A stretch of DNA of 64,000 bases from assembly GCF_024502345.1 (NCBI RefSeq), contig NZ_JALDNN010000001.1. One strand, 5' to 3'. Below are positions 35,688-35,873 of this stretch, one piece after another. Source of the DNA: Escherichia coli (GTDB lineage: Bacteria > Pseudomonadota > Gammaproteobacteria > Enterobacterales > Enterobacteriaceae). The position numbers were made by a program, and so were the translations under genes. The notes beneath the pieces are model-generated. The model was not told the DNA's origin. It saw only the letters and a program-made list of their open reading frames with translations, and did not search any database. Within the stretch, counting starts at the first letter, position 1. Each line of letters opens with the position of its first letter.

Positions 35688-35716
35688 CGCGGGGGTAAAA
35701 CCCCGCGTATTGAATT
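35688..35716 (+). terminator. hairpin terminator after the hok-like ORF
   Basis: cgcgggg-gtaaaa-ccccgcg stem-loop followed by tattgaatt. Confidence 0.5.
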
Positions 35717-35873
35717 GTGATGGTTTGGTCTCCTGCACCCTTTTTTAAATTTATATTTTTTATGTGAATATATTGTCTCTATTTATTATTATGAATTTCA
35801 AATGAAAATCATAAATTTATTCACAATATAAATGTTTTATTGGCTGATATATATCACAGATAATTTTTAATAT

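What the first reader, a model, noticed from the sequence alone, without database searches (positions are those of the whole stretch)
35710..35873. Extremely AT-rich, curved-looking DNA immediately upstream of cas3
The 160 bp before the cas3 start are almost entirely A/T with phased A- and T-tracts (ttttttaaatttatattttttatgtgaatatattg ... aatttattcacaatataaatgtttta). Such tracts are typical H-NS nucleation sites, and H-NS silencing of I-E cas promoters is established in E. coli. If cas3 is still a gene here, it is probably silenced under laboratory conditions.
Basis: partly seen in the sequence, partly recalled or inferred. Interest (0 to 1): 0.3.

Follow-up and report, generated by a model that had tools for sequence, protein, structure and literature searches.

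The report
AT-rich promoter region of cas3 remnant
The flagged stretch is the very A/T-rich control region in front of a broken CRISPR gene (cas3) in an E. coli/Shigella-type genome; by composition it is a plausible target of the silencing protein H-NS, but it is not detectably curved, and nothing here shows silencing.

Summary
The A/T-richness is real. Bases 35741-35873 are 14.3% G+C, the lowest 133-nt stretch in the 64-kb window (mean 51%).

Three details of the observation fail:
- The first ~37 nt (35710-35746) are the conserved 3' end of a hok/sok toxin mRNA.
- The real cas3 start is probably GTG 35916, not ATG 35874, so the non-coding tract runs to 35915.
- The A/T tracts are not helically phased, and predicted curvature equals that of shuffled copies.

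The tract matches the position and distribution of "IG4", the intergenic element that Almendros et al. 2014 link to the cas-E1 variant of the type I-E system. It is not homologous to the E. coli K-12 (cas-E2) cas3 upstream region. The K-12 H-NS results therefore apply only by analogy.

Its cas3-proximal 100 nt are conserved across genera and hold the only promoter-like site. In intact E1 loci, this tract and the CRISPR leader are the only A/T-rich islands. The tract is therefore the likely promoter and regulatory island of the E1 cas operon, and the obvious H-NS nucleation site.

H-NS occupancy could not be tested. Here cas3 is a remnant, fused in frame to the end of cas2 by a 6.3-kb deletion. 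The finding is ordinary, and its interest is low.

The parts
35283..35314 (+). Intrinsic terminator downstream of cysH. It marks the left edge of the hok/sok-cas3 interval.
   Evidence: Terminator scan found a 14-pair stem followed by a T-run. cysH is annotated just upstream in homologous loci.
35388..35544 (+). 5' regulatory part of a hok/sok type I toxin-antitoxin locus (region of the antisense Sok RNA).
   Evidence: Rfam RF01794 'sok', 106.7 bits against a gathering score of 59, E = 1.7e-24, full-length match.
35529..35681 (+). Hok/Gef toxin ORF (50 aa, [15 protein letters not shown]...).
   Evidence: ORF translation. Annotated as a Hok/Gef family protein at the same position in L001, L003, L016 and L017.
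35722..35746 (+). 3' fold-back (fbi-like) element of the hok mRNA plus a T6 run (35741-35746).
   Evidence: In the RNA fold of 35388-35750, the 5' end pairs with 35722-35740 (MFE -131.7 kcal/mol, z = -3.67). Almost every column is identical in 7 sequences. Genomes without cas genes match the window only up to 35747.
35748..35815 (.). Distal, fast-evolving half of the A/T-rich intergenic tract. Candidate H-NS/nucleoid-protein nucleation zone or UP-like region.
   Evidence: Part of the 126-nt stretch 35748-35873 at 15.1% GC. Only 59-97% identical among relatives, with indels including a 39-column gap in Escherichia sp. MOD1-EC7003. Holds one 8/10 match to the H-NS 10-mer at 35814-35823 on the - strand.
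35816..35915 (+). Proximal, conserved half of the A/T-rich tract. Holds the predicted cas3 promoter (-35 CTGATA 35844-35849, -10 TAATAT 35868-35873, predicted start near 35880) and a 5' UTR with Shine-Dalgarno GAAGGA at 35900-35905.
   Evidence: 80-97% identical to relatives, and 92% to Pseudocitrobacter, about the same as cas3 coding DNA. The homologous site (CTGATA-18-TAAAAT) is the only + strand promoter-like hit in 3.2 kb of the intact E1 locus L001. PWM score in the window is 8.2. No experimental start site is available.
35874..35876 (+). ATG used as the cas3 start in database annotation. Probably not the real start.
   Evidence: Out of frame in L004, L005 and L006 because of a 1-nt indel. 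Residues 1-14 are not conserved in any distant relative. It overlaps the region just after the predicted -10 element.
35916..37910 (+). cas3 remnant of the cas-E1 variant. Probable GTG start; truncated after about residue 679 (numbered from ATG 35874), so the C-terminal part is missing.
   Evidence: ORF and translation. The cas3E1-R primer of Almendros 2014 matches 35955-35974 exactly, and the E2 primer is absent. The intact homologue is 899 aa. The same arrangement is annotated as a pseudogene in L003.
37911..38135 (+). 3' part of cas2, fused in frame to the cas3 remnant. A 6,297-bp deletion removed casA through cas1.
   Evidence: Junction mapped against the intact E1 locus L018: 46/46 matches on each flank, 2-nt microhomology 'ta'. 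The junction is identical in E. coli 23CRST035.
38136..38231 (+). A/T-rich CRISPR leader (26% GC).
   Evidence: It is the second A/T-rich island of E1 loci.
38232..38443 (+). Residual CRISPR array: three 29-nt repeats (38232, 38293, 38354), three 32-nt spacers and a degenerate terminal repeat (38415-38443).
   Evidence: Read directly from the sequence. A CRISPR feature is annotated at the same place in L003.

Best explanation
**What it is.** The A/T-rich tract 35741-35915 matches the position and distribution of 'IG4' of Almendros et al. [quoted passage not shown]

**How it most likely works.**
- The T6 run at its left edge ends the hok mRNA.
- The conserved right-hand 100 nt carry the sigma-70 promoter (-35 CTGATA 35844-49, -10 TAATAT 35868-73), a ~35-nt 5' UTR and the ribosome-binding site for cas3, which starts at GTG 35916.
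- The extremely A/T-rich, TpA-rich DNA over and upstream of that promoter is the most likely nucleation site for H-NS (and StpA). H-NS would occlude or trap RNA polymerase and keep transcription low in rich medium.
- Intact E1 loci have no A/T-rich gap between cas3 and casA. This island probably controls the whole cas3-to-cas2 operon there.
- In this window it can only drive a Cas3(deltaC)-Cas2(deltaN) fusion ORF and read-through toward the leader and a three-spacer array. Any silencing now has no immune consequence.

**Shown:** composition, boundaries, conservation pattern, non-homology to K-12, start-codon reassignment, and the gene remnant.

**Inferred:** promoter position, H-NS binding, silencing, and operon structure.
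For: - **Composition:** lowest-GC stretch of the window (14.3% GC, z = -5.3), with 27 TpA steps in 167. It is more A/T-rich than the richest 133 nt (19.5% GC) of the K-12 cas3-casA intergenic region, which is reported as H-NS-bound.
- **Boundary:** genomes lacking cas genes (Nissle 1917 and others) match the window only up to 35747, and K-12 lacks the tract entirely. 2,770 of 5,426 E. coli genomes carry it in front of a gene annotated Cas3 in every listed hit. This agrees with IG4 being E1-linked (PMC3903273), and the E1 primer matches.
- **Conservation:** the proximal half is conserved like coding DNA, while the distal half is variable.
- **Promoter:** the only + strand promoter-like site in hok-cas3-casA of an intact E1 locus lies in the proximal half (window score).
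- **Start codon:** GTG is supported by 12 loci.
- **Architecture:** an intact E1 locus has only two islands at <=30% GC, this tract (15.8%) and the leader (25.8%). Its cas3-casA gap is 97 nt at 47% GC, and its cas genes are 51.3% GC against 44.8% in K-12.
- **Related species:** an A/T-rich stretch (18-30% GC per 50 nt) lies upstream of cas3 in most related enterobacterial loci, without sequence conservation.
- **Literature:** cas3 is H-NS-repressed in K-12 stationary phase (PMC4782391), S. Typhi (cited in PMC8039139) and K. pneumoniae (PMC4987720).
Against: - I found no H-NS occupancy, footprint or hns-mutant expression data for an E1-type locus or for Shigella.
- The island is short (~170 bp) and flanked by 45-52% GC DNA. 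An H-NS filament has little A/T-rich DNA to spread on.
- The best H-NS 10-mer match is only 8 of 10 bases.
- No intrinsic curvature or helical phasing was detected.
- The predicted promoter is weak in the window (8 of 12 consensus positions, below the scan threshold), and other candidates score similarly.
- In K-12 the H-NS effect on cas3 itself is small or growth-phase-specific (PMC4782391, PMC7019758).
- In S. Typhi, cas3 is reported as a transcription unit separate from cse1-cas2 (PMC8039139). This weakens the single-operon inference.
- Klebsiella indica cas3 has no A/T-rich upstream tract.
Confidence: 0.55

Rival explanations
1. This is an ordinary weak promoter and 5' UTR that is A/T-rich but not meaningfully silenced by H-NS. 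cas3 (here the remnant) would be transcribed at a low constitutive level, possibly modulated by CRP or other factors, as reported for K-12 cas3 in exponential phase.
For: K-12 cas3 transcripts are unchanged in delta-hns cells at mid-log phase (PMC4782391). Promoter activity is only 'slightly increased' in delta-hns and is activated by CRP (PMC7019758). The island is short and its flanks are not A/T-rich. A CRP-like site, GCTGAtatataTCACA, lies at 35843-35858 and overlaps the predicted -35.
Against: The K-12 promoter is not homologous, so its behaviour does not transfer in either direction. The CRP-like match is at chance level: 25 found against 24.9 expected. DNA of about 85% A+T is, from general knowledge of H-NS, rarely left unbound in enterobacteria. 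cas3 is de-repressed in hns mutants of three species in the literature.
Confidence: 0.25
2. The tract is a compositional relic. It would be junction DNA brought in with the horizontally exchanged cas-E1 module, plus the hok terminator T-run, with no regulatory role of its own.
For: It begins exactly at the module boundary, 35747/35748. The distal half evolves fast with indels. In this genome the downstream gene is dead.
Against: The proximal 100 nt are 92% identical between this window and a Pseudocitrobacter locus, matching the cas3 coding DNA. They contain the Shine-Dalgarno sequence and the only promoter-like site. cas3 needs some promoter, and an intrinsic-terminator-like site follows cysH.
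Confidence: 0.1
3. The tract is intrinsically curved DNA formed by phased A-tracts and acts as an architectural element.
For: Several short A/T tracts are present. A local curvature peak at 35758 reaches the 98th percentile of the window.
Against: There is no 10-11 bp periodicity above shuffles. Global bend equals that of shuffled copies, and 22% of all windows are at least as bent, while a phased control bends strongly in the same model. Many places in the window score higher.
Confidence: 0.05

Closest known systems
IG4, the intergenic region linked to the cas-E1 variant at the E. coli CRISPR-I locus (Almendros et al. 2014, PMC3903273)
   Same: It lies next to cas3 of the E1 variant in a locus that keeps the hok/sok system. 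It is present with E1 and absent from E2 (K-12) and from strains without cas genes.
   Different: That paper defines IG4 only as a marker of locus arrangement. It assigns no promoter, start codon or regulator. The identification here rests on position and distribution, because the paper's figure could not be read.
K-12 cas3-casA intergenic region with the Pcas promoter, silenced by H-NS and relieved by LeuO (Pul 2010 and Westra 2010, as cited in PMC4782391 and PMC8616872)
   Same: It is an A/T-rich island 5' of type I-E cas genes and probably plays the same regulatory role. The composition is similar or less extreme (29.5% GC overall, minimum 19.5%).
   Different: It sits at a different place (between cas3 and casA, 414 nt) in a different module (E2). 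There is no sequence homology. E1 loci have only a 97-nt, 47% GC gap at that position. H-NS binding is shown for K-12 and not for this tract.
K-12 cas3 promoter region (upstream of cas3-E2), with a CRP site (PMC7019758) and 8-fold stationary-phase de-repression in delta-hns (PMC4782391)
   Same: It occupies the same position relative to the gene, immediately upstream of cas3 and downstream of the hok/sok remnant.
   Different: It is not homologous. It is 96 nt at 34% GC, the hok gene is deleted, and a strong GGAGG ribosome-binding site precedes an ATG start. The footprinted CRP sequence is absent here.
S. Typhi cas3 transcription unit silenced by H-NS (Medina-Aparicio 2017, cited in PMC8039139)
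   Same: cas3 is of the same lineage (64% identity to a Salmonella diarizonae Cas3 over the first 300 residues), with an A/T-rich upstream region of 22-30% GC.
   Different: The upstream sequences do not align, and the neighbouring genes differ. The primary paper was not available to me.

Membership tests
H-NS-silenced (xenogeneic-silencing) promoter region | A+T content far above the genome average over 100 bp or more | tested here: met
   14.3% GC over 133 nt against a 51% window mean, z = -5.3.
H-NS-silenced (xenogeneic-silencing) promoter region | H-NS occupancy in vivo (ChIP) or binding in vitro (EMSA/footprint) | not testable with these tools
   No dataset found for E1-type E. coli or Shigella. 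The supplements of Lucchini 2006 are not held.
H-NS-silenced (xenogeneic-silencing) promoter region | De-repression of the downstream gene in an hns mutant | not testable with these tools
   Reported only for other, non-homologous cas3 promoters (PMC4782391, PMC4987720, PMC8039139).
H-NS-silenced (xenogeneic-silencing) promoter region | High-affinity nucleation motif resembling TCGATAAATT (consensus recalled from Lang et al. 2007) | tested here: inconclusive
   One match at 8 of 10 bases, 35814-35823 on the - strand. Window-wide, 83 matches were found against 64 +/- 8 expected.
H-NS-silenced (xenogeneic-silencing) promoter region | Intrinsic curvature or helically phased A-tracts (a classical correlate, not a strict requirement) | tested here: not met
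   Periodicity and wedge-model tests equal shuffled controls.
IG4 / cas-E1 module | Adjacent cas3 is the E1 variant | tested here: met
   The cas3E1-R primer matches 35955-35974 exactly, and the E2 primer is absent. 94-95% nucleotide identity to E. coli E1 cas3.
IG4 / cas-E1 module | Present with E1; absent from E2 strains and from strains without cas-E genes | tested here: met
   2,770 genomes carry it in front of a gene annotated Cas3 in every listed hit. Genomes lacking cas genes (Nissle 1917 and others) stop matching at 35747. K-12 has unrelated sequence.
Sigma-70 promoter | -35 and -10 hexamers with 16-18 nt spacing | tested here: inconclusive
   CTGATA-18-TAATAT matches 8 of 12 positions in the window, below the scan threshold. 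The homologous site matches 9 of 12 in L001. Several alternatives have similar scores.
Sigma-70 promoter | Mapped transcription start site | not testable with these tools
   No start-site data found for this variant.
hok/sok type I toxin-antitoxin locus (for bases 35710-35746) | Sok/hok leader RNA, a Hok ORF, and 5'-3' fold-back pairing | tested here: met
   Rfam RF01794, 106.7 bits. 50-aa Hok ORF. 5'-3' pairing in the MFE and centroid folds, z = -3.67.
Functional cas3 gene | Full-length HD-helicase protein with its C-terminal domain, next to Cascade genes | tested here: not met
   Truncated at about residue 679 of 899 and fused to cas2. casA through cas1 are deleted.

The most novel reading that the evidence does not exclude
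The two E. coli type I-E variants may differ in regulatory architecture as well as in genes. In cas-E1 loci (O157:H7-type, Shigella), a single extremely A/T-rich island upstream of cas3 would act as promoter and H-NS/LeuO switch for one eight-gene operon, cas3 through cas2. It would replace the K-12 arrangement of a separate cas3 promoter plus an H-NS-silenced Pcas between cas3 and casA. Nuclease and Cascade would then be co-regulated in E1 but uncoupled in E2. In the remnant found here, the same island would drive a Cas3(deltaC)-Cas2(deltaN) fusion and read-through toward the leader and the mini-array.
Probability: 0.3. Interest if true: 0.35.

Novelty: new member of a known kind. Interest (0 to 1): 0.15.

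Why it matters
It matters little for this genome. The CRISPR-Cas system is already destroyed, so silencing of the remnant has no immune consequence.

The wider value is a caution and a small lead:
- **Caution:** nearly all knowledge of H-NS/LeuO/CRP control of E. coli CRISPR-Cas comes from K-12 (cas-E2). About half of sequenced E. coli (2,770 of 5,426 complete genomes) carry this A/T-rich tract next to an E1-type cas3, with different, non-homologous regulatory DNA.
- **Lead:** E1 loci have no A/T-rich cas3-casA gap. Their regulation may therefore hang on this single island.
- **Annotation:** the cas3 start in RefSeq records of this variant (checked in L001 and L003) is probably 14 codons too long.

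Tried and rejected
1. **Curvature and phasing.** Three tests were run: local wedge-model curvature, AA/TT periodogram against shuffles, and global bend with positive and negative controls. All came out at background level. The model parameters were recalled from memory but behaved correctly on the controls.
2. **H-NS 10-mer.** TCGATAAATT gives one 8/10 hit, which is uninformative in such A/T-rich DNA.
3. **CRP site.** GCTGA-N6-TCACA at 35843-35858 looked attractive because K-12 cas3 is CRP-activated. Two-mismatch sites occur at the chance rate.
4. **Other RNA families.** Apart from sok, the Rfam scan of 35000-38600 found only two sub-threshold hits at the cysH terminator and nothing in the A/T-rich tract.
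5. **Minus-strand promoter.** The - strand promoter-like site at 35795->35767 has the highest PWM score (12.6), but it lies in the variable half and is not conserved. It is probably one of the spurious promoters typical of A/T-rich DNA.
6. **Transferring K-12 data.** This was rejected because the sequences are not homologous.
7. **Literature and supplement searches.** I looked for H-NS ChIP or hns transcriptomes in O157, EHEC or Shigella and found nothing usable ([invalid search term, not run], 33, 38, 39, 45, 51, 53, 55, 56).
8. **Small ORFs.** Those in the tract are 9 codons or shorter, by reading the sequence, and lie in or across the variable half. They were dismissed.

Full report
**Context.** The window is an E. 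coli/Shigella-type chromosome segment. Going rightward it holds:
- cysJ, cysI and cysH;
- a terminator at 35283-35314;
- a hok/sok toxin-antitoxin locus: Rfam sok at 35388-35544 with 106.7 bits, and a Hok ORF at 35529-35681;
- the flagged A/T-rich tract;
- an ORF at 35874-38135 (753 aa);
- an A/T-rich leader and a three-spacer CRISPR array at 38232-38443;
- iap on the opposite strand, then cysDNC.

Ten kilobases of flanking core genes (iap through nlpD) are at most 99.3% identical to any of 5,426 complete E. coli genomes. Touchon & Rocha 2010 report that the three S. flexneri genomes keep only a cas3 pseudogene (PMC2886076). The source is therefore probably a Shigella flexneri-like lineage. 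This is an inference and was not verified.

**Check of the observation.** The composition claim holds. Its core, 35741-35873, is 14.3% GC, the minimum of all 133-nt windows in the 64 kb (mean 51.0%, sd 6.9%, z = -5.3).

Three details do not hold.
1. *Left edge.* Bases 35710-35740 are ordinary in composition. They are the 3' fold-back element of the hok mRNA. In the predicted fold of 35388-35750, the 5' end pairs with 35722-35740 (z = -3.67), and a T6 run follows at 35741-35746. This part is nearly invariant in relatives.
2. *Right edge.* The ATG at 35874 is the start annotated in RefSeq relatives, but it is probably wrong.
   - In 12 related loci from nine genera, protein homology starts at residue 14-17.
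   - A GTG, TTG or ATG lies at or within two codons of the position of window GTG 35916 in 11 of the 12, usually with an in-frame stop upstream.
   - In three close relatives a 1-nt indel throws the ATG out of frame.
   - A GAAGGA Shine-Dalgarno sequence lies at 35900-35905.
   - The non-coding A/T-rich tract is therefore 35741-35915 (175 nt, 16.6% GC).
3. *Phasing and curvature.*
   - AA/TT periodicity at 10-11 bp is not above dinucleotide shuffles.
   - The wedge-model bend is 0.935, against 0.924 +/- 0.051 for shuffles and 0.347 for a phased A6 control. Of all 168-bp windows, 22% are at least as bent.
   - The local curvature maximum is only at the 98th percentile.

**What the tract is.**
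- The cas3 here is the cas-E1 variant. The diagnostic primer of Almendros et al. 2014 matches 35955-35974 exactly, and the E2 primer is absent.
- That paper states that E1 is always linked to an intergenic element called IG4 and E2 to IG5, and that hok/sok is present in all strains except those with E2 (PMC3903273).
- My comparisons agree:
  - 2,770 of 5,426 E. coli genomes carry 80% or more of 35690-35880 in front of a gene annotated Cas3 in every listed hit.
  - Strains without cas genes (Nissle 1917 and others) match only up to 35747, after which iap follows.
  - K-12 has lost the hok gene and has an unrelated 96-nt, 34% GC spacer with GGAGG and an ATG.
- The A/T-rich tract therefore starts at the boundary of the exchangeable cas module and belongs to it.
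- Its identification with IG4 rests on position and distribution, since the paper's figure could not be read.

**Internal anatomy.**
- An alignment of seven sequences (A1) splits the tract in two.
  - The distal half (35748-35815) is variable: 59-97% identity, with indels including a 39-column gap in Escherichia sp. MOD1-EC7003.
  - The proximal half (35816-35915) is conserved: 80-97%, and 92% to a Pseudocitrobacter locus. cas3 coding DNA is 91% identical in the same comparison.
- In the intact E1 locus L001, the only + strand promoter-like site across hok-3' end, cas3 and casA-5' end (3.2 kb) is CTGATA-18-TAAAAT. It corresponds to window 35844-35849 and 35868-35873, where the -10 reads TAATAT. 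That is 8 of 12 consensus positions and a PWM score of 8.2.
- This predicts a start near 35880 and a ~35-nt 5' UTR. It also places ATG 35874 upstream of the transcript, which fits the GTG start.
- The promoter is a prediction only. Other candidates score similarly.

**Bearing on H-NS.** I could not test occupancy. Searches for H-NS ChIP or hns transcriptomes in E1-type E. coli or Shigella found nothing usable.

*In favour:*
- The tract is about 85% A+T with many TpA steps (27 of 167). This is more extreme than the richest part (19.5% GC) of the K-12 cas3-casA region, which papers report as H-NS-bound (PMC4782391, PMC8616872).
- An intact E1 locus has only two islands at or below 30% GC: this tract (15.8%) and the CRISPR leader (25.8%). 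The cas3-casA gap is only 97 nt at 47% GC, and the genes are 51.3% GC against 44.8% in K-12. If H-NS controls E1 cas genes at all, this is where it must nucleate.
- cas3 is H-NS-repressed in K-12 stationary phase (8-fold; PMC4782391), in S. Typhi (cited in PMC8039139) and in K. pneumoniae (PMC4987720).
- Most related enterobacterial cas3 genes have an A/T-rich upstream stretch whose sequence is not conserved. This pattern suggests selection on composition or an origin as acquired DNA.

*Against:*
- The island is short, with flanks of 45-52% GC.
- The H-NS 10-mer match is weak.
- K-12 cas3 shows little H-NS dependence in exponential phase (PMC4782391, PMC7019758).
- K-12 data concern non-homologous DNA, so they count neither for nor against.

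**Verdict on the interpretation.** It is partly supported. The tract is a good compositional candidate for H-NS binding and very probably the cas3-E1 promoter region. The "phased, curved" rationale is wrong, the K-12 precedent is only an analogy, and silencing remains untested.

**State of the gene.**
- The ORF is a cas3 remnant, intact up to about residue 679 of 899.
- It is joined in frame to the last 75 codons of cas2. A 6,297-bp deletion with 2-nt microhomology removed casA through cas1.
- The identical junction is present in E. coli 23CRST035, where RefSeq marks both pieces as pseudogenes.
- Eighteen E. coli genomes match contiguously across the junction region.
- Whatever the promoter does, the locus cannot provide interference or adaptation.

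**Novelty and score.**
- This is a further, uncharacterised example of a known kind: an A/T-rich promoter island in front of acquired defence genes, and a probable H-NS target.
- The one mildly interesting reading is that E1 and E2 modules differ in regulatory architecture, with one island upstream of cas3 instead of a separate Pcas.
- I give that reading a probability of about 0.3, partly because S. Typhi is reported to transcribe cas3 separately from cse1-cas2 (PMC8039139).
- Overall interest is 0.15.

Noticed in passing
window 35874-38135 (junction about 37909-37911): cas3 is fused in frame to the 3' part of cas2 by a 6,297-bp deletion with 2-nt microhomology, giving a 753-aa ORF (739 aa from GTG). 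The identical junction occurs in E. coli 23CRST035, and 18 E. coli genomes match contiguously across it. RefSeq calls both parts pseudogenes.
   Followed up: partly
window 35874 vs 35916: The cas3 start annotated in RefSeq for this variant (ATG; checked in L001 and L003) is probably 14 codons too far upstream. Comparative data point to GTG 35916, with GAAGGA at 35900-35905.
   Followed up: yes
window 35388-35746: An apparently intact chromosomal hok/sok locus: Hok ORF, sok leader, and 5'-3' fold-back pairing. K-12 keeps only the sokX remnant at this place.
   Followed up: partly
window 38136-38443: A residual CRISPR2.1 array of three spacers plus a degenerate terminal repeat, behind a 26% GC leader, although the adaptation and Cascade genes are gone.
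   Followed up: no
window 17896-19370: A second CRISPR locus lies on the - strand (repeats visible as VYPRWRGE-type translations at 17.9-18.9 kb). Its probable leader at 18955-19087 is the second most A/T-rich spot of the window (15.8% GC). Further partial repeats lie at about 19297-19366.
   Followed up: no
window 35795->35767 (- strand): The strongest promoter-like match in the tract (TTCATA-17-TATATT, PWM 12.6) points leftward into the hok 3' end. It lies in the variable half and is not conserved in relatives, so it is probably spurious.
   Followed up: partly
window 35843-35858: A CRP-like site, GCTGAtatataTCACA, overlaps the predicted -35. It is partly conserved in relatives, but two-mismatch sites occur at the chance rate in the window (25 against 24.9 expected).
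   Followed up: partly
L018 / L001 (intact E1 locus of E. coli 2013C-3264) vs L002 (K-12): E1 cas genes are 51.3% GC with a 97-nt, 47% GC cas3-casA gap. K-12 E2 genes are 44.8% GC with a 414-nt, 29.5% GC gap. The two variants differ in composition and in where A/T-rich regulatory DNA sits.
   Followed up: partly
window 38464-48464 and 35916-36815: Core genes are at most 99.3% identical to any of 5,426 complete E. coli genomes. The first 900 nt of cas3 are only about 94.5% identical to the three E. coli E1 alleles compared (L001, L003, L017), although hok (97-98%) and the A/T-rich tract are closer. The source is probably a Shigella-like lineage with a distinct cas3 allele.
   Followed up: no
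window 16754-16886: Another A/T-rich stretch (21% GC) lies upstream of a - strand 313-aa ORF (15834-16775) that has a Gly/Ser-rich C-terminus. Not examined.
   Followed up: no
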